A stretch of DNA of 64,000 nt, taken from a virus. Each line of letters begins with the position of its first letter. Position 1 is the first letter of the stretch. A program made the translations under genes and the position numbers. Below the pieces are notes generated by a model. It saw nothing but the letters and a program-made list of their open reading frames with translations. It ran no database searches and was not told where the DNA came from. Location: IMG/VR virus record IMGVR_UViG_3300035169_000087, positions 35,072-99,071 of that record. The stretch is one strand, 5' to 3'. Below, piece by piece: positions 13,314-50,340 of this stretch.

Positions 13314-13343
13314 TTCGCCCGCGACACCCGGCAGCGCTACGGT
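13314..13343 (+). promoter_or_regulatory. putative promoter for the Y RNA-Ro cassette
   Basis: TANNNT-type -10 TACGGT at 13338-13343 lies 7 nt before the first RNA unit; weak -35 TTCGCC. TACGGT also precedes the other + strand insertions (near 22662 and 24699) and the GntR gene. Confidence 0.5.
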
Positions 13344-13350
13344 AGGGCTC

Positions 13351-13422
13351 GCCCCGGTGCGCACGGTACGGGTTACTTCTTTCATGCAGAAACAACACCC
13401 GCACCGGACCTGATCTCGGGGC
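13351..13422 (+). ncRNA. Y RNA-like unit 1 (short, no T/D arms)
   Basis: GCCCC-GGTGCG...TACTTC...GATCTC-GGGGC; the ends pair; inner stem CGGTaCGGGT/ACCCGcACCG; adjacent to the Ro60 gene. Confidence 0.75.
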
Positions 13423-13449
13423 ACACAACTGAACAATGACTGCGAACGC

Positions 13450-13584
13450 CCGTCAGGTGCGCAGGAGAGGGCTACTTCACTCTGTAAAAGTGGCAGTCCG
13501 GGTTCGAGTCCCGGCAGGCCCGTAACAGGGCCCGTAGTGTAACGGCAGCACGCTCGTCGCCTTCCCCGACTCGATCTCTGGCGG
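13450..13584 (+). ncRNA. Y RNA-like unit 2 (YrlA-like, permuted tRNA with a GUA anticodon arm)
   Basis: Same GGTGCG/TACTTC/GATCTC frame enclosing anticodon arm, T arm (CCGGG TTCGAGT CCCGG), acceptor hairpin and D arm (GTGT AACGGCA GCAC), in that order. Confidence 0.88.
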
Positions 13585-13602
13585 CACTCGCAGTGGACAG
13601 CA

Positions 13603-13725
13603 CCTCCCGGTGCGTAGGCGACGCGTACTTCTCGCTAGGGATATCGGTTCGAATCCGAGAGCCGCTTCGGCGGCGACGGCGTGACGGTAACCGCCATTTC
13701 GCGTAGCCGCCCTGATCTCGGGAGG
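13603..13725 (+). ncRNA. Y RNA-like unit 3 (YrlA-like)
   Basis: CCTCCC-GGTGCG...GATCTC-GGGAGG; T arm TCGG TTCGAAT CCGA; acceptor hairpin GCCGC TTCG GCGGC; D-like arm GGCG...CGCC. Confidence 0.85.
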
Positions 13726-13737
13726 AGCAAGCATCGG

Positions 13738-13880
13738 GGTCGCGCCCGGTGCGACGGAGACGGGTCCTTCTTAGGGTTGCTGGTTCGAATCCAGTCGAGT
13801 CGCTTAGGCGGCTCGTAGCGCAATCTGGTAGCGCATAAGAGCAGTTCAATCCCGCCACCATTCCGATCTCGGGCGCGACC
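13738..13880 (+). ncRNA. Y RNA-like unit 4 (canonical YrlA-like)
   Basis: GGTCGCGCCC-GGTGCG...GATCTC-GGGCGCGACC; TCTTA/TAAGA stem; T arm GCTGG TTCGAAT CCAGT; acceptor CGAGTCGC TTAG GCGGCTCG; D arm GCGC AATCTGGTA GCGC. Confidence 0.9.
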
Positions 13881-13917
13881 ACCTTTCCCGCTCCTCCCCT
13901 TCCCGTGGGAGTCGAGC

Positions 13918-16770
13918 ATGGCCCGTTTCAACACCCCGACCGCGAAGCCCGCGGTCCACTCGCCGATCATGGGCGAGCGCACCGCGTCCGGGCGCACCTT
14001 CGAAGGCGGCGCAGGCTACGCGCGGGACGCCAAGTCGGAACTCTTCCTGCTCGCCGTCTCGAACTTCGTGTCCACCGACACGTTCTACGAGAAGGCCGAC
14101 GACCGCGACGAGCGGTTCGAACGCCTCGTGCACCAGGTCGCGGTCGAGGACCCGGACTGGATGGGCCGGTTCATCCCGTGGCTGCGCAGCGAGGCCAACA
14201 TGCGCACCGCGTCCCTCGTCGCGGCCGCCGAGTCCGTCAAGGCACGACTGGACGCCTACGACGCTTCTCTCGCCGGGAACGAGCAGCCTGCGGACGCGCT
14301 CAAGAAGCCGGTCAACCGCGCACTGATCAACGCTGCGTGCCAGCGGCCCGACGAACCCGGTGAACTACTCGCCTACTGGACATCCCGCCACGGACGCGCC
14401 CTGCCCAAGCCCGTCAAGCGAGGCATCGCCGACGCCGTGCGACGCCTCTACAACGGCAAGTCGCTGATCAAATACGACACCGCGTCGCACGGCTACCGGT
14501 TCGGCGACGTCCTCAACCTCGTACACGCCGACCCCGAACCGGACAAGCCGTGGCAGGGCGAGCTTTTCAAGTACGCCCTGGACCGGCGCCACCACCCGGC
14601 TGAGGCGGTCGTACCGGAATCGAACCGCACGCTCACCGCGAACAGTGCGCTGCTCGCGCTGCCCGTCGACCAGCGGCGCGCGTTCCTGCGCGGCCCCGAC
14701 GCCGCGGCGCGCCTCACCGAGGCCGGGTTCACGTGGGAGATGCTGGCCGGGTGGCTGCAGGGCCCGATGGACGCCGAGGCGTGGGAGGCCGTGATCCCGT
14801 CGATGGGGTACATGGCGTGCCTCGCCGAGGGAACCCCGGTCTGGCTGGCCGATGGCACCACCGCACCGATCGAGGACGTGGTGGCCCGCAAGCTGCCAGT
14901 GCTCTCCTACGACAAAGCATGGGACAGCCGGCCGGTCAAATACGGTCCCAACCAGGGGCCACGTGACCAGTCGGTGGGCAACCTCGTGCCTACGATCCCG
15001 TCTGCGTGGCTCGACACCGGCGTGCGCCCCATTGCGGCCGTGCGGTTCGCCTCGGGCCGCGTCATTGAGGCCACCTACGATCACCGGTGGGTACGCCAAC
15101 GTCGAAGCGGCCGCCAGGCGTGGGAATGGAACACGACTAGTGAGCTGCGGGTCGGCGACCGCATCCCGGTCCCTCTGACCGCCGATACGTTCGGCGATGA
15201 GGGAGACGCCTGGGATGGCTACTTTGTTGGGGGCATGCTCGGCGACGGTGGCATGACAGTGCTGACCCCGGAGTTTCATGGCGACCCGAACAACGGCGCT
15301 GTGGCGTTCATGCGCGAATACGCAGCCAAACACGGCTGCGACGTTCGCGAGGACACGAACGGTGCGATCGTGCGCATGCGATTCCCGTTCAAACAGTGGA
15401 AGCGGAATCCGCTGGCGGAGATCCTTCGCCGGTACGAGGTCTGGGGAAAGCGTTGCGAGGCCAAAGCACTGCCCAACCGGCCCTTCAGCCGGGAGTTCTG
15501 GATCGGCGCGCTATCCGGTCTGATCGATACTGACGGCTGCGTCCGGGAGCGCACCAACGCCAAGGGCACCCTGCACGGCTCGGTCGAGTATGCCACCGTG
15601 TCCCGACGGCTCGCCGAGCAAGTGTCCGATGTGCTGCTGCGTCTCGGGGTAACCAACATCATCCGCGAGAGGGCGCCACTCAGCCGGCCCGACGCAGCCA
15701 TCCAGAGCCGCCACACCCTCTTCGTCGTGGAAACGAACCGGGCGACGGCGCTGGTTCGTCTCGCCGAACTCCTCGACCTGCGGATCAGCTACAAAGCCGC
15801 GCGGCTCGCTAGCCTGGCGGAGCGCTTGGCGCATGTAGCTCCGGCTTCGAGCGAGATGCACGGATACGACAAGGCCGTGGCTCTGGATCGCGTGGTAGCG
15901 ATCGAGGACGCCGGAGAGCGCGCGACATATTGCGTCACGGTCGACGCCTCGAACTTGTTTGTGGCTAATGGCATTGTGACGGGCAATTGCCTGCGCAACC
16001 TGAGGAATTTCGACGAGACCGGCGTCCCGGACGATGTCGCCGAGCAGGTCATCGCGAAGCTCAAGGATCCGGCCGAGGTCGCCCGCTCGCGACAGTTGCC
16101 GTTCCGGTTCCTCTCGGCGTACCGGGCGGCTCCGTCGCTGCGCTGGTCGTATCCGCTGGAGGTCGCGATCGGCCGCTCCCTGGGCAACGTGCCGGCGCTG
16201 TCGGGCCGCACGCTGATCCTCGTGGACACCTCGGGTTCGATGAACGCGGGGTTCAGTAAGGACGGGACGCTGATGCGGTGGGACGCTGCGGCGCTGTTCG
16301 GGATCGCACTGGGGCATCGTTGCGCTGCGGCGGACGTGGTGTCGTTCTCCTCGCTTCAGTACTACTACGGGCAGCCGGGTGGCGCGAACGTGAAGGCGTT
16401 CCCGCTGAGCAAGGGCGAGTCGGTGCTGCGGTCGCTGGAGCGGTGGCGTGGCGGCGGCTGGTTCCTGGGCGGGGGTACGGAGACTGCGGCGGCGTTGCGG
16501 GCGACGTTCCAGGGCCATGACCGTGTGGTGGTGTTGACGGACGAGCAGGCGGCGCATGACGGGGTGGAGGTGACGCGGAGCGTGCCGGAGTCGGTGCCGA
16601 TGTACACGTGGAACCTGGCGGGTTACGCGCGGGGGCATGCGCCGTCGGGTGGGCGGAATCGGCATGCGTTTGGGGGGCTGACGGATCAGGCGTTCAAGAT
16701 GATTCCGTTGCTTGAGGGCGGCCGGGACGGTTCCTGGCCGTGGGATGCGGAGACGGTGCCCGCGCGGTAG
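13918..16770 (+). CDS. rsr: Ro60/Rsr-like TROVE + vWA RNA-binding protein precursor containing an intein (560 aa after splicing)
   Basis: TROVE-type N-terminus (TFEGGAGY...ELFLLAV...TFYE, RPDEPGELLAYW, KPVKRGIADAV, KYD...DVLNLVH); GYMA|CLRNLRNF is split by the intein; SRQLPFRFLSAY; vWA MIDAS LVDTSGSM, GGT, LTDEQ. Confidence 0.93.
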   Translation: MARFNTPTAKPAVHSPIMGERTASGRTFEGGAGYARDAKSELFLLAVSNFVSTDTFYEKADDRDERFERLVHQVAVEDPDWMGRFIPWLRSEANMRTASLVAAAESVKARLDAYDASLAGNEQPADALKKPVNRALINAACQRPDEPGELLAYWTSRHGRALPKPVKRGIADAVRRLYNGKSLIKYDTASHGYRFGDVLNLVHADPEPDKPWQGELFKYALDRRHHPAEAVVPESNRTLTANSALLALPVDQRRAFLRGPDAAARLTEAGFTWEMLAGWLQGPMDAEAWEAVIPSMGYMACLAEGTPVWLADGTTAPIEDVVARKLPVLSYDKAWDSRPVKYGPNQGPRDQSVGNLVPTIPSAWLDTGVRPIAAVRFASGRVIEATYDHRWVRQRRSGRQAWEWNTTSELRVGDRIPVPLTADTFGDEGDAWDGYFVGGMLGDGGMTVLTPEFHGDPNNGAVAFMREYAAKHGCDVREDTNGAIVRMRFPFKQWKRNPLAEILRRYEVWGKRCEAKALPNRPFSREFWIGALSGLIDTDGCVRERTNAKGTLHGSVEYATVSRRLAEQVSDVLLRLGVTNIIRERAPLSRPDAAIQSRHTLFVVETNRATALVRLAELLDLRISYKAARLASLAERLAHVAPASSEMHGYDKAVALDRVVAIEDAGERATYCVTVDASNLFVANGIVTGNCLRNLRNFDETGVPDDVAEQVIAKLKDPAEVARSRQLPFRFLSAYRAAPSLRWSYPLEVAIGRSLGNVPALSGRTLILVDTSGSMNAGFSKDGTLMRWDAAALFGIALGHRCAAADVVSFSSLQYYYGQPGGANVKAFPLSKGESVLRSLERWRGGGWFLGGGTETAAALRATFQGHDRVVVLTDEQAAHDGVEVTRSVPESVPMYTWNLAGYARGHAPSGGRNRHAFGGLTDQAFKMIPLLEGGRDGSWPWDAETVPAR
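14818..15987 (+). mobile_element. intein (390 aa) with LAGLIDADG homing endonuclease
   Basis: Block A CLAEGTPVWLADG, block B EATYDHRW, LAGLIDADG motifs GYFVGGMLGDG and ALSGLIDTDG, block F/G TYCVTV...LFVANGIVTGN, followed by Cys+1. Confidence 0.93.
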
Positions 16771-16777
16771 AACCAGT

Positions 16778-16810
16778 GGCCCCGTGCTCGACGGAACCAG
16801 GCGCGGGGCC
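16778..16810. terminator. hairpin between convergent genes
   Basis: GGCCCCGTGC...GCGCGGGGCC immediately after the TROVE stop. Confidence 0.6.
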
Positions 16811-17151
16811 TACGGGCAGTCGCAGTGCCCGCAGTGGTGGTGCACGCTCGGCGGGGGCGGTGTCACCTGCTGCGTGGTGAGGACCGGCGGCCGGACGGTG
16901 CCGCGCGGGGACTTCTGCCCGAGGCCGGGCCGGGTGAGCACGTCCGGAAGCGGGCCCATAGCGGACACGGGCACGTTAGCCGCCATGTATCTGCGTCGCT
17001 GCTTGCCTTGCGCCTGCCGGAGTTCGGCCCTGTGGCGGGCGGTGTTCTCGACGATCCCGAGTTCCAGTTCCAGGGCGCGGATGCGGGCCCAGGTGCGCCG
17101 ATACCTGCGGTATCGGATCAGGCGCACCAGTAGACGCGCTAGCCAGGTCAC
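16810..17151 (-). CDS. hypothetical basic protein with C-terminal HHHCGHCDC
   Basis: GTGA-type coupling to the DUF6221 gene; shares a VPVSxMGPLPxVLTRP motif with 10170-10982. Confidence 0.55.
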   Translation of the reverse strand: MTWLARLLVRLIRYRRYRRTWARIRALELELGIVENTARHRAELRQAQGKQRRRYMAANVPVSAMGPLPDVLTRPGLGQKSPRGTVRPPVLTTQQVTPPPPSVHHHCGHCDCP

Positions 17152-17588
17152 AGCACCCACTTCTCGTCCCAGCCTTGGCGTCCCGCGTACGGGGCGGCGA
17201 GCAGGCGCGCTGTGAGGCACGGCGCCCACAGGTCACCGTTGAAGTCCGGGTCGCTCTGGCGGTCCTGGCAGAAGTAGCGCCGTGTCCCGTCGTCGAGTTC
17301 CGCGTAGGAGGTCATGTGCAGGCCCAGGATCGCCCGCTTCGTCTCGACCTCAGCGAGCACGTGGGCCGGATCCCAGCGCGCGATGTGGACGCCGACAGTC
17401 TCGTCAATGTCCTCGATCCCGGTTGCGACTACACCGCCGGACGCCCCCACCGAACCGCGAAAGAGGGTCCACTGCGGATCTGGTGTGCCGTCCGTGGTGC
17501 CCGCAGCCAGCGCGGACTGCATCGCGATCTGCTCGTCTCCGGCGAGGCATTTCTCGAGGAACGCGGTGATCGCGGCAACGTCAGTCAC
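17148..17588 (-). CDS. DUF6221-like actinophage protein
   Basis: AFL...DEQIA...HIARWDPAHVLAEVETKRAIL...PCLTARLLAAPYA...W. Confidence 0.75.
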   Translation of the reverse strand: MTDVAAITAFLEKCLAGDEQIAMQSALAAGTTDGTPDPQWTLFRGSVGASGGVVATGIEDIDETVGVHIARWDPAHVLAEVETKRAILGLHMTSYAELDDGTRRYFCQDRQSDPDFNGDLWAPCLTARLLAAPYAGRQGWDEKWVL

Positions 17589-48445: not shown

Positions 48446-49096
48446 ATGACCGACACGCTCCAGGACGCCCCGCTCGGGGTGTGCGCGTGCGGGCAGCCCA
48501 ACGAGGGCGCCTACCAGCGGCACCTCGCCCAGGCCGAGTACGACGCGCTACCGGACGAGCTCAAGCCAATCGACGGGTACGCCGTCACCGCCGTACACGC
48601 CTGCGGGGACTGCCTACCCGACCCGATCTGCGCCCACCCCGACGAAGGCCCCGTGCCGTGCCCGGTCTGCCACGCCGAACCCGGTGCGCAGTGCACGAAG
48701 CCCGACGGCAGCCCCCGCCCGGTCGGACATCGCGAACGCGCCGCCGCACAACCCCGGCCGGACACGTGCACCCACGCCCACCGCGAGGACTGCACCAGCC
48801 CCGACGCCTGCCAGTGCTCCGGCGACGACCAGCCGCCCGCACGGCTACCCCGCGTCATCCTGCCGCCCACCCAGCAGCAGATCCTCACCGACCTGGGTGT
48901 GGCGCCCGCGATGCTCGCCCGCGCCGTCGAACTGATCGCGCAGCGCGGCATCGACCCGACCCGGGTGCGCGGCGGATTCCGCACCGGGCTCACCCAGGAC
49001 AACCGGCCGGCGATCCTCTTCGACTACGCGGTCGGCACCGACGCGCACGGCCGCGAACAAACCGAGACGCGCATCGAACCCATCGAAGTACCGTGA
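48446..49096 (+). CDS. Cys/His-rich Zn-finger protein
   Basis: CACG, CGDC, CPVCHAEPGAQC...H and CxHxH...CxC. Confidence 0.6.
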   Translation: MTDTLQDAPLGVCACGQPNEGAYQRHLAQAEYDALPDELKPIDGYAVTAVHACGDCLPDPICAHPDEGPVPCPVCHAEPGAQCTKPDGSPRPVGHRERAAAQPRPDTCTHAHREDCTSPDACQCSGDDQPPARLPRVILPPTQQQILTDLGVAPAMLARAVELIAQRGIDPTRVRGGFRTGLTQDNRPAILFDYAVGTDAHGREQTETRIEPIEVP

Positions 49097-50340
49097 CCGC
49101 CGCACCAGCCGCCTACCTCGCAACCCGCGACATCCCACTCGACGAACTCACCCCGTTCCCCGGAAACGCCAAACGCGGCGACGTCGAAGCCATCCGCGCA
49201 TCCCTGCGCCGCAACGGCCAGTACCGCTCGCTCATCGTGCGGGAAATCCCCAACGGCCCGCTGATCGTCCTCGCGGGCAACCACACCATGCAGGCACTCG
49301 CCGCCGAAGGCCACGCCGCGGCGCGCTGCGAGATCGTCCAATGCGACGACGCCACCGCACGGCGTATCAACCTCGCCGACAACCGCACCGCCGAACTCGG
49401 CACCTACGACGACGACGCGCTCGCCGAACTCATCACCGCGCTCGACGGCGACTACGACGGCACCGGATACGCACAGGACGACATAGACGCGATCCTCAAC
49501 CAAAACGAGGAACTGCCCGCAGTCCTCAGTGACCCGGACGACGTACCCGATACGCCTACCCGGCCCGTCAGCGCACCCGGAGACGTATGGTGCCTCGGCC
49601 CGCACCGCGTCCTATGCGGCGACTCCACCGACATCGCCGCCGTCGAAACCATGCTCGACGGCGACCGCTGCGACTGCATGTGGACCGACCCGCCCTACGG
49701 CGTGAACTACGTCGGCAAGACCGCCGACGCCCTCACCATCGAGAACGACGGTGCCGGGAACCTGCCGGAACTCCTCGCTGGCGCCTTCGCCGTCGCAACC
49801 GCCGCGCTCACCCCAGGCGCAGCGGTATACATAGCGCACCCGCCGGGTGCGCTATCGAAGACCTTCCGGGACTCATTCGACGAAGCCGGATGGTCGTACC
49901 GGCAGGGCCTCGTCTGGGTCAAGGACACACTCGTACTCGGGCGCTCCGACTACCACTACCGGCACGAACCGATCATGTACGGGTTCACCGATGGCGGCGA
50001 AGGCCGCCGGGGACGCGGCGGCGAGAACTGGCACGGCGACAACGCGCAAACCAGCGTCTTCGAGATCCCGAAACCGCCGCGCAACCAAGAGCACCCGACC
50101 ATGAAGCCCGTGGAACTCGTCACCCGGTGCCTCAGCAACTCCACCGCCCCTGGCGCCCGGGTATACGAGCCGTTCGGCGGTAGCGGGACCACGCTGATAG
50201 CGGCCCACACGATCGGGCGCATCGCACGCGTCGTCGAACCGGCATCAAGCCGATACTCGCCTCAACAGGCCAGCCACACGACTTCACCTAGCCAGCGTTC
50301 GCCGAACGCATGGAAAGCCGAACGCGCCAACAGGGGGTGA
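49093..50340 (+). CDS. ParB-like N-terminal domain + DNA adenine methylase; C-terminus apparently frameshifted
   Basis: PFPGNAKRGD...LAGNHT...LADNRT (ParB-like); GDST, TDPPY, HPTMKP, EPFGGSGTT. Confidence 0.85.
   Translation: MTAAPAAYLATRDIPLDELTPFPGNAKRGDVEAIRASLRRNGQYRSLIVREIPNGPLIVLAGNHTMQALAAEGHAAARCEIVQCDDATARRINLADNRTAELGTYDDDALAELITALDGDYDGTGYAQDDIDAILNQNEELPAVLSDPDDVPDTPTRPVSAPGDVWCLGPHRVLCGDSTDIAAVETMLDGDRCDCMWTDPPYGVNYVGKTADALTIENDGAGNLPELLAGAFAVATAALTPGAAVYIAHPPGALSKTFRDSFDEAGWSYRQGLVWVKDTLVLGRSDYHYRHEPIMYGFTDGGEGRRGRGGENWHGDNAQTSVFEIPKPPRNQEHPTMKPVELVTRCLSNSTAPGARVYEPFGGSGTTLIAAHTIGRIARVVEPASSRYSPQQASHTTSPSQRSPNAWKAERANRG

What the first reader, a model, noticed from the sequence alone, without database searches (positions are those of the whole stretch)
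13338..16810. Self-contained phage Ro60/Y-RNA cassette: four tandem Y RNAs with one scaffold and different payloads, upstream of a TROVE gene
Seen: four units (13351-13422, 13450-13584, 13603-13725, 13738-13880) share one architecture. Each has a terminal stem of different sequence that always pairs, an invariant GGTGCG opposite GATCTC (foldable as a bulged helix), a second co-varying stem, TACTTC (TCCTTC in unit 4), then a variable module. Unit 1 carries a small hairpin; units 2-4 carry T arm, closed acceptor hairpin and D arm. A -10 box lies 7 nt before unit 1, a hairpin follows the TROVE stop, and the cassette is antisense to all flanking genes, like a moron. Known: bacterial Ro60 orthologues (Rsr) bind Y RNAs encoded next to them; YrlA-class Y RNAs are permuted tRNA mimics; some phages carry Ro/Y RNA. 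Inference: a four-member array with one Ro-binding handle and different effector domains suggests a modular RNP in which one Ro ring presents several RNA baits or tethers. No RtcB/RtcR is seen in this window, so the role may differ from the usual RNA-repair context.
Basis: partly seen in the sequence, partly recalled or inferred. Interest (0 to 1): 0.92.

Follow-up and report, generated by a model that had tools for sequence, protein, structure and literature searches.

The report
Phage Ro60 gene with four Y RNAs
An uncultured soil phage, probably of Streptomyces, carries the gene for the ring-shaped RNA-binding protein Ro60 behind four small partner RNAs (Y RNAs), two of them clear tRNA look-alikes; this is a real, enlarged example of a protein-RNA pairing already known from bacteria and phages.

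Summary
Four tandem units (13351-13422, 13450-13584, 13603-13725, 13738-13880, + strand) share one handle: a terminal stem, GGTGCG, a second stem, T(A/C)CTTC, then GATCTC. They lie 38 nt upstream of a 950-aa TROVE+vWA (Ro60) gene split by a 390-aa LAGLIDADG intein.

A covariance model of the handle, seeded with unit 1 and 30 units from other contigs, finds exactly these four in the 64 kb (E 2e-13 to 5e-7). It also finds 204 units in 85 related phage loci and 149 in 80 Streptomyces chromosomal Ro60 loci. All lie on the Ro60 strand, nearly all upstream of the gene. Stems covary strongly (15 of 16 pairs). In a search that did not use the protein, 12 of 12 handle-bearing stretches encoded Ro60.

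Units 2 and 4 carry a T arm, a closed acceptor hairpin and a D arm, as in YrlA. Unit 1 is a plain hairpin, as in YrlB. The payload of unit 3 is not conserved in relatives.

Phage Ro60 with Y RNAs is published (Chen 2014; phage phiLo 2025). Relatives carry 1-7 units, most often two, so four is an expansion, not a new system. This scan has also noted Ro60-like genes with RNA arrays on other DNA. Expression and binding are untested. Interest is moderate.

The parts
13314..13343 (+). Candidate promoter: -35-like TTCGCC (13314-13319), 18-nt spacer, -10-like TACGGT (13338-13343)
   Evidence: A TANNNT hexamer (TACGGT, TACCGT or TAGGCT) sits 7-8 nt before the first unit in 5 of 6 close loci. The sigma-70 consensus scan found nothing. 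Function is inferred.
13351..13422 (+). Y RNA unit 1: handle plus a plain apical hairpin (YrlB-like long hairpin)
   Evidence: R1 scores 68.9 bits, E 2e-13. The fold z-score is -3.2.
13450..13584 (+). Y RNA unit 2: handle plus a hairpin with the 7-nt loop CUGUAAA, a T arm, a closed 7-bp acceptor-like hairpin, UA and a D arm
   Evidence: R1 scores 55.2 bits. In orthologues the T, acceptor and D stems covary. Re-permuted constructs are called tRNA-Tyr(GTA) by ARAGORN, while the native sequence is not called.
13603..13725 (+). Y RNA unit 3: handle with the invariant ACCUCCC/GGGAGG stem, a 4-bp T-like arm, a UUCG hairpin and a degenerate D-like hairpin
   Evidence: R1 scores 50.5 bits. It is the positional orthologue of the ~75-nt penultimate unit in most loci. 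Only the handle is conserved among its orthologues.
13738..13880 (+). Y RNA unit 4: classical YrlA type with an open anticodon-stem analogue (UCUUA/UAAGA), a T arm, a closed 7-8-bp acceptor hairpin, UA and a D arm
   Evidence: R1 scores 40.8 bits. Rfam YrlA scores 39.7 bits, E 3e-7, covering model positions 1-114. Orthologues covary.
13907..13911 (+). Ribosome-binding site GGGAG, 6 nt before the ATG
   Evidence: Read from the sequence.
13918..14817 (+). Ro60 N-extein (TROVE HEAT-repeat part, 300 aa)
   Evidence: It is 40-49% identical to actinophage 'Ro-like RNA binding protein' and 62-69% identical to the closest uncultured-virus and Streptomyces relatives. It matches phage phiLo Ro60 structures 9KOP and 9L5Y, E 3e-9.
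14818..15987 (+). Intein (390 aa) with a LAGLIDADG homing-endonuclease domain. It starts with Cys and ends Gly-Asn, and the next residue is Cys.
   Evidence: Pfam LAGLIDADG_3 scores 45.1 bits. Intein_splicing scores 35.2 bits, just under its cut-off of 35.8. Relatives read PSMGYMALLRNLRNFDE straight across the site.
15988..16770 (+). Ro60 C-extein: end of TROVE plus the vWA domain with a DTSGS MIDAS motif
   Evidence: Pfam TROVE scores 33.8 bits and VWA_2 22.7 bits. It matches 9KOP residues 251-489.
16778..16810 (.). GC-rich hairpin between the convergent Ro60 gene and the minus-strand gene 16810-17229; possible terminator
   Evidence: Seen in the fold. The z-score is -1.5 and there is no U tract, so the evidence is weak.

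Best explanation
This is a Ro60/Y-RNA operon of the actinobacterial YrlA/YrlB type carried by an uncultured soil phage, probably of Streptomyces. One promoter just upstream of unit 1 most likely drives a single transcript holding four Y RNAs and the Ro60 mRNA (inferred). Host RNA-processing enzymes then cut out the four RNAs, as shown for M. smegmatis YrlA and YrlB, which come from one precursor. Each RNA binds the Ro60 ring through the shared handle: the terminal stem, the invariant GGUGCG/GAUCUC internal loop and the second stem (inferred from conservation). The different inner modules give four distinct RNPs. Units 2 and 4 present L-shaped tRNA mimics to host tRNA-binding factors. With their 7-8-bp acceptor stems they may be cut by RNase P and receive CCA, as M. 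smegmatis YrlA does. Unit 1 is the plain-hairpin type. The RNPs probably tether Ro60 to host exoribonucleases such as PNPase, or to tRNA enzymes, and so reshape structured-RNA or tRNA turnover during infection. Ro60 becomes active only after the intein splices out, because the intein interrupts the conserved MALLRNLRN segment. Shown here: the anatomy, covariation, linkage to Ro60 and homology. Inferred: transcription, processing, binding and cellular role.
For: R1 finds exactly four units in the window. It finds 204 units in 85 phage or viral loci, all on the Ro60 strand and nearly all within about 1 kb upstream, and 149 units in 80 Streptomyces loci. On 145 distinct units, 90.1% of cells are paired against 68.3% in shuffles, 15 of 16 pairs carry compensatory changes, and the covariation score is 0.527 against 0.095 or less for slid partners. 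In a search that did not use the protein, all 12 stretches with an R1 hit encoded Ro60 just downstream and the other 68 had neither. YrlA gives a sub-threshold but significant match on unit 4. T, acceptor and D stems covary in orthologues of units 2 and 4. Both exteins are collinear with the solved phage Ro60. Published precedent exists: Rsr-bound YrlA and YrlB processed from one precursor in M. smegmatis, YrlA-like RNAs in 22 phages (PMC4201824), and phiLo Ro60 binding two upstream Y-like RNAs and host PNPase (PMC12135203). Spacers between units are only 12-27 nt, and a conserved -10-like box precedes the first unit only.
Against: There are no expression data, because no RNA run holds this DNA. 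No binding data exist. No unit reaches the Rfam YrlA gathering score (39.7 against 69). The published GNCGAA(N)G motif is only partly kept: the window has GCGCA, GCGUA or GCGAC, while the wider family consensus is UGCGAAG. The GGUGCG/GAUCUC pairing is invariant, so covariation cannot test it. The payload of unit 3 is not conserved among close relatives, so it may have no specific partner. The alignments used for counting were fitted to the model, which favours the modelled structure. The intein ends Gly-Asn rather than His-Asn, so splicing efficiency is unknown.
Confidence: 0.88

Rival explanations
1. The four structures act mainly in cis as a long structured leader of the Ro60 mRNA. Ro60 binds the handles in its own leader to control its translation or stability, and the units are not released as stable trans-acting RNAs.
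For: The units lie directly upstream on the same strand. The spacers are short and no internal promoters or terminators were detected. The last unit ends 38 nt before the ATG here and about 40 nt before it in most loci.
Against: In M. smegmatis and S. Typhimurium the homologous elements are discrete, Rsr-bound RNAs (PMC4201824). The tRNA-like modules keep the T-loop, the D-loop GG and the UA linker under covariation, which a Ro60 autoregulatory site would not need. The two roles are not mutually exclusive.
Confidence: 0.08
2. The units are decayed or rearranged tRNA genes, remnants of a phage tRNA array, with no functional link to Ro60.
For: In other actinophages the Ro60 gene sits inside a tRNA array. 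The units contain T and D arms.
Against: ARAGORN finds no tRNA in the window. The non-tRNA handle is the most conserved and most strongly covarying part. The handle occurs only next to Ro60. The acceptor is closed and the arm order is permuted in the same way across hundreds of units.
Confidence: 0.02

Closest known systems
Mycobacterium smegmatis Rsr with YrlA and YrlB (Chen et al. 2014, PMC4201824)
   Same: It is an actinobacterial Ro60 with Y RNAs upstream on the same strand, made from one precursor and not linked to RtcB/RtcR. One RNA has a T arm, a closed acceptor stem and a D arm, and the other is simpler. The complement of the published YrlA-5' probe holds a UUAC..CUUC element like the TACTTC motif here (inference from the oligo).
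   Different: Two RNAs there and four here. The order differs: YrlB lies between YrlA and rsr in M. smegmatis, whereas here the tRNA-like unit 4 is next to Ro60. That locus is chromosomal and has no intein.
Streptomyces chromosomal Ro60 loci and related uncultured actinophage contigs
   Same: The same handle and the same positional classes are present: the last unit has a G(U/C)GCCC stem and is about 140 nt, and the penultimate unit has a CCUCCC stem. Ro60 is 59-69% identical in the closest loci. An S-L-L-L array like the window's is seen in L008, L009 and L020.
   Different: Most loci have two units, or up to three in Streptomyces chromosomes. Here the penultimate unit is expanded from about 75 to 123 nt, and an extra short unit leads the array. 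None of about 170 relatives has the intein.
Thermus phage phiLo Ro60 with Yrl1 and Yrl2 (PMC12135203; PDB 9KOP, 9L5Y)
   Same: It is a phage-encoded Ro60 with Y-like RNAs just upstream. It is the only solved structure found by sequence for both exteins. It binds host PNPase in vitro.
   Different: Sequence identity is low and there are two RNAs. The paper does not use the term YrlA for them. The host phylum differs.
Salmonella Typhimurium YrlA (Rfam RF02553; structure 6CU1, bioRxiv 10.1101/312249)
   Same: Unit 4 aligns over the whole model (positions 1-114). The anticodon stem is opened and continues into the Ro60-binding stem, and the acceptor is closed.
   Different: The score is below the Rfam threshold. 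Salmonella YrlA lies in the rsr-yrlBA-rtcBA operon under RtcR. Unit 2 adds a hairpin with an anticodon-loop-like 7-nt loop, whereas that paper states that YrlA lacks the anticodon loop.

Membership tests
Ro60 / Rsr (TROVE + vWA) | TROVE HEAT-repeat ring domain followed by a vWA domain with a MIDAS motif | tested here: met
   Pfam TROVE scores 33.8 bits (cut-off 23) on the C-extein. VWA_2 scores 22.7 bits, below its cut-off of 27, but DTSGS is present. The N-extein has no Pfam hit, yet it matches annotated phage Ro-like proteins (E 4e-79) and 9KOP. Both exteins are collinear with 9KOP.
Y RNA (general) | Encoded next to Ro60 on the same strand | tested here: met
   Unit 4 ends 38 nt before the ATG. 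All 204 + 149 related units lie on the Ro60 strand.
Y RNA (general) | The 5' and 3' ends pair into a long stem that holds a conserved Ro60-binding site | tested here: met
   The terminal stem and second stem covary around the invariant GGUGCG/GAUCUC. That this is the binding site is an inference.
Y RNA (general) | Stable discrete RNA bound by Ro60 | not testable with these tools
   No RNA run holds the DNA. Immunoprecipitation or EMSA is needed.
YrlA (Rfam RF02553) | Reaches the Rfam gathering score (69 bits) | tested here: not met
   Unit 4 scores 39.7 bits and unit 2 scores 20.9 bits. Units 1 and 3 give no hit.
YrlA (Rfam RF02553) | T arm, closed acceptor-like stem-loop and D arm in that order inside the Ro60-binding stem, with a UA linker and D-loop GG | tested here: met
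   This is met for units 2 and 4, and it covaries in their orthologues. Unit 3 meets it only loosely (4-bp T stem, GA linker).
YrlA (Rfam RF02553) | GNCGAA(N)G motif near the 5' end (Chen 2014) | tested here: inconclusive
   The family consensus here is GGUGCGaAGg, which keeps GCGAAG. The four window units keep GCG but read CA, CA, UA and AC in place of AA.
Intein (LAGLIDADG class) | N-terminal Cys/Ser, C-terminal (His-)Asn followed by Cys/Ser/Thr, and an endonuclease domain | tested here: met
   It starts with Cys 301, ends Gly-Asn 690 and is followed by Cys 691. The penultimate His is absent. LAGLIDADG_3 scores 45.1 bits. Its removal restores the conserved ...PSMGYMA-(C)LRNLRNFDE of relatives.

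The most novel reading that the evidence does not exclude
The extra units serve to counter host defence. Unit 2 is the clearest case: once re-permuted it is a complete tRNA-Tyr-like cloverleaf with a canonical CUGUAAA loop. On this reading, anticodon-arm-bearing tRNA mimics held on Ro60 act as decoys or sensors for host tRNA-targeting enzymes such as anticodon nucleases and modification enzymes. The varied loop triplets among relatives (GCU, GUU, CAU, GAU and others) would then reflect different host threats, and array growth to 4-7 units in phages would be an arms-race signature.
Probability: 0.1. Interest if true: 0.8.

Novelty: new member of a known kind. Interest (0 to 1): 0.4.

Why it matters
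Y RNAs are the least understood part of the Ro60 system, and the partners of their tRNA-like modules are still unknown. This family gives a large natural series: hundreds of units on one handle, arrays of 1-7, and fixed positional classes in both Streptomyces chromosomes and their phages. Such a series could be used to map which part binds Ro60 and which parts recruit other factors. It also shows that Rfam-based annotation misses these RNAs in actinophages. By itself the locus does not change the picture of what Ro60/Y-RNA systems are.

Tried and rejected
- Rfam at gathering thresholds found nothing in the window.
- ARAGORN on the native sequence found no tRNA or tmRNA.
- Megablast and blastn of the cassette and of the RNA region against 50,697 phage records found no match.
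- The sigma-70 consensus scan found no promoter, and the terminator-like hits are not at the cassette ends.
- No RNA holder is listed for this DNA among public sequencing runs, so expression could not be examined and read laying was not used.
- The marginal fifth R1 hit at 49046-49113 (minus strand, E 0.18) lies antisense inside a plus-strand structural-gene region with poor stem pairing. I rejected it as chance.
- The loose DNA pattern scan of viral contigs returned mostly chance matches (68 of 80). It was useful only after filtering with R1 and tblastn.
- A 707-aa Ro60 ORF in Streptomyces locus L092 looked like a second intein, but it is a low-complexity read-through tail.
- The supplementary tables of Chen 2014 and two Wolin-lab reviews are not held. 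I therefore could not check how many multi-unit loci were already listed.
- PHROGs gave no informative function for the flanking minus-strand genes.
Full report
**What is there.** The window is part of a 99-kb IMG/VR virus record, about 76% complete. On the plus strand, a 950-aa ORF (13918-16770) encodes a Ro60-type protein. Its C-terminal part hits Pfam TROVE and vWA. Its N-terminal 300 aa is 40-49% identical to annotated 'Ro-like RNA binding proteins' of Streptomyces, Gordonia and Arthrobacter phages. Both parts align collinearly with the solved Ro60 of Thermus phage phiLo. A 390-aa LAGLIDADG intein (14818-15987) interrupts the conserved PSMGYMA|LLRNLRNFDE segment. None of the 85 viral and 80 Streptomyces relatives examined by ORF length, nor the tblastn-matched Ro60 genes found by the pattern scan, carries it.

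**The four units.** An alignment shows invariant GGTGCG and GATCTC, T(A/C)CTTC, and two stems whose sequences differ between units but always pair.

**Is it more than chance?**
- I built covariance model R1 of the handle from 31 short units. Thirty came from other viral contigs and only unit 1 came from the window.
- R1 recovers all four window units (E 2e-13 to 5e-7). It recovers nothing else credible in 64 kb or in the 99-kb record.
- In 85 related phage or viral loci it finds 204 units. In 80 Streptomyces chromosomal Ro60 loci (62-66% protein identity) it finds 149 units. Every one is on the Ro60 strand, and nearly all lie within about 1 kb upstream.
- On 145 distinct units, 90% of cells pair against 68% in shuffles. 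Fifteen of 16 pairs show compensatory changes. The covariation score is 0.53, against 0.095 or less when partners are slid. One position of the second stem is unpaired in most units, which looks like a conserved mismatch.
- A search that did not start from the protein gave the same link. Of 80 viral stretches matching a loose 14-base pattern, 12 had an R1 hit, and exactly those 12 encoded Ro60 immediately downstream.

**What the units are.**
- Unit 4 aligns over the full Rfam YrlA model (39.7 bits, E 3e-7, below the gathering score of 69). It has the classical YrlA plan: an opened anticodon-stem analogue (UCUUA/UAAGA) that continues into the handle, a T arm, a closed 7-8-bp acceptor hairpin, UA and a D arm.
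- Unit 2 has the same T, acceptor and D set, and these stems covary in orthologues. It also has a 5-bp hairpin with the loop CUGUAAA. When the module is re-permuted in silico, ARAGORN calls tRNA-Tyr(GTA) across many junction choices, although the native sequence gives no call. Chen et al. call this hairpin the V arm. Whether it behaves as a variable arm or as an anticodon arm cannot be decided from sequence.
- Unit 1 is a plain hairpin of the YrlB kind.
- Unit 3 carries the invariant ACCUCCC/GGGAGG stem that marks the penultimate, usually about 75-nt, unit in both viral and Streptomyces loci. Here it is expanded to 123 nt. Its payload is not conserved even among the closest relatives.

**How unusual is the array?** Detected units per locus in viral contigs are: none in 1 locus, one in 10, two in 45, three in 19, four in 7, six in 2 and seven in 1. 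These are lower bounds. In L002, for example, I see five units by eye and R1 reports three. The closest relatives L008, L009 and L020 have the same short-long-long-long order as the window. Streptomyces chromosomes have one to three units. Four units is therefore an expansion within a family whose usual state is two.

**How it probably works.**
- A TANNNT box, conserved in 5 of 6 close loci, sits 7-8 nt before the first unit.
- Spacers between units are 12-27 nt and contain no detectable promoter or terminator. A GGGAG ribosome-binding site precedes the ATG.
- I infer one transcript that host enzymes process into four Y RNAs plus the Ro60 mRNA, as shown for M. smegmatis YrlA and YrlB (PMC4201824).
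- I infer that each RNA binds Ro60 through the handle and that the inner modules recruit different host factors. PNPase is the documented partner in Deinococcus, Salmonella and phage phiLo (PMC4201824, PMC12135203).
- Transcription, processing and binding could not be tested here, because no RNA run holds this DNA.

**Comparison with what is known.** Chen et al. 2014 reported 355 YrlA-like sequences next to Ro60 in 254 bacteria and 22 phages, at least two Y RNAs in each species studied, and processing from one precursor. The phiLo study of 2025 showed a phage Ro60 binding two upstream Y-like RNAs. M. smegmatis YrlA is not under RtcR control, so the absence of RtcB here is not a departure. The locus is a new member of this kind. 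The points that go beyond the papers I could read are the 4-7-unit arrays, the fixed positional classes and the intein. Earlier notes of this scan describe Ro60-like genes with RNA arrays in many other phage genomes, so the general pattern was found before on other DNA. I did not test those notes.

**Verdict.** The novelty is modest, and the mechanism is inferred by homology.

Noticed in passing
window 14818-15987: A full-length LAGLIDADG intein lies in the Ro60 gene, inserted in the conserved MALLRNLRN segment. It ends Gly-Asn rather than His-Asn. None of the 85 viral and 80 Streptomyces Ro60 relatives checked has an intein, and I found no paper on inteins in TROVE proteins.
   Followed up: partly
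window 13602-13608 and 13720-13726; penultimate units of L007-L169: The terminal stem ACCUCCC/GGGAGG of the penultimate unit is nearly invariant in 43 viral and 41 Streptomyces loci, whereas the stems of other units vary. The sequences resemble an anti-Shine-Dalgarno/Shine-Dalgarno pair. The reason for this sequence constraint is unexplained.
   Followed up: no
L022, L052, L086 (upstream of position 2501): Related viral contigs carry six or seven handle-bearing units in one array upstream of Ro60. This is the largest expansion seen in this family.
   Followed up: partly
L004 (GiJojo), L005 (VanLee), L006 (Atuin): Cultured actinophages have unannotated Y-RNA-like units beside their Ro-like genes, inside or next to tRNA arrays. 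In VanLee the annotated tRNA-Arg(tct) (L005:2204-2275) overlaps a YrlA-like Rfam hit (2244-2307), and the Rfam tRNA model gives no hit there at E 0.1 or better.
   Followed up: no
long units of L002-L169: Of 135 distinct segments between the CTTC motif and the T arm, 30 fold into a hairpin with a 7-nt loop that has an anticodon-loop-like signature: C32 in 60%, U33 in 73%, a purine at position 37 in 90% and A38 in 70%. The middle triplets vary.
   Followed up: partly
window 1-64000: The window has no tRNA gene at all, although related actinophage Ro60 genes sit within tRNA arrays.
   Followed up: no
alignment A4, columns 23/155 (second stem): One position in the middle of the second stem is unpaired in 92 of 145 units (A·C in window units 1 and 2). 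It looks like a conserved mismatch that may be part of the protein-binding surface.
   Followed up: no
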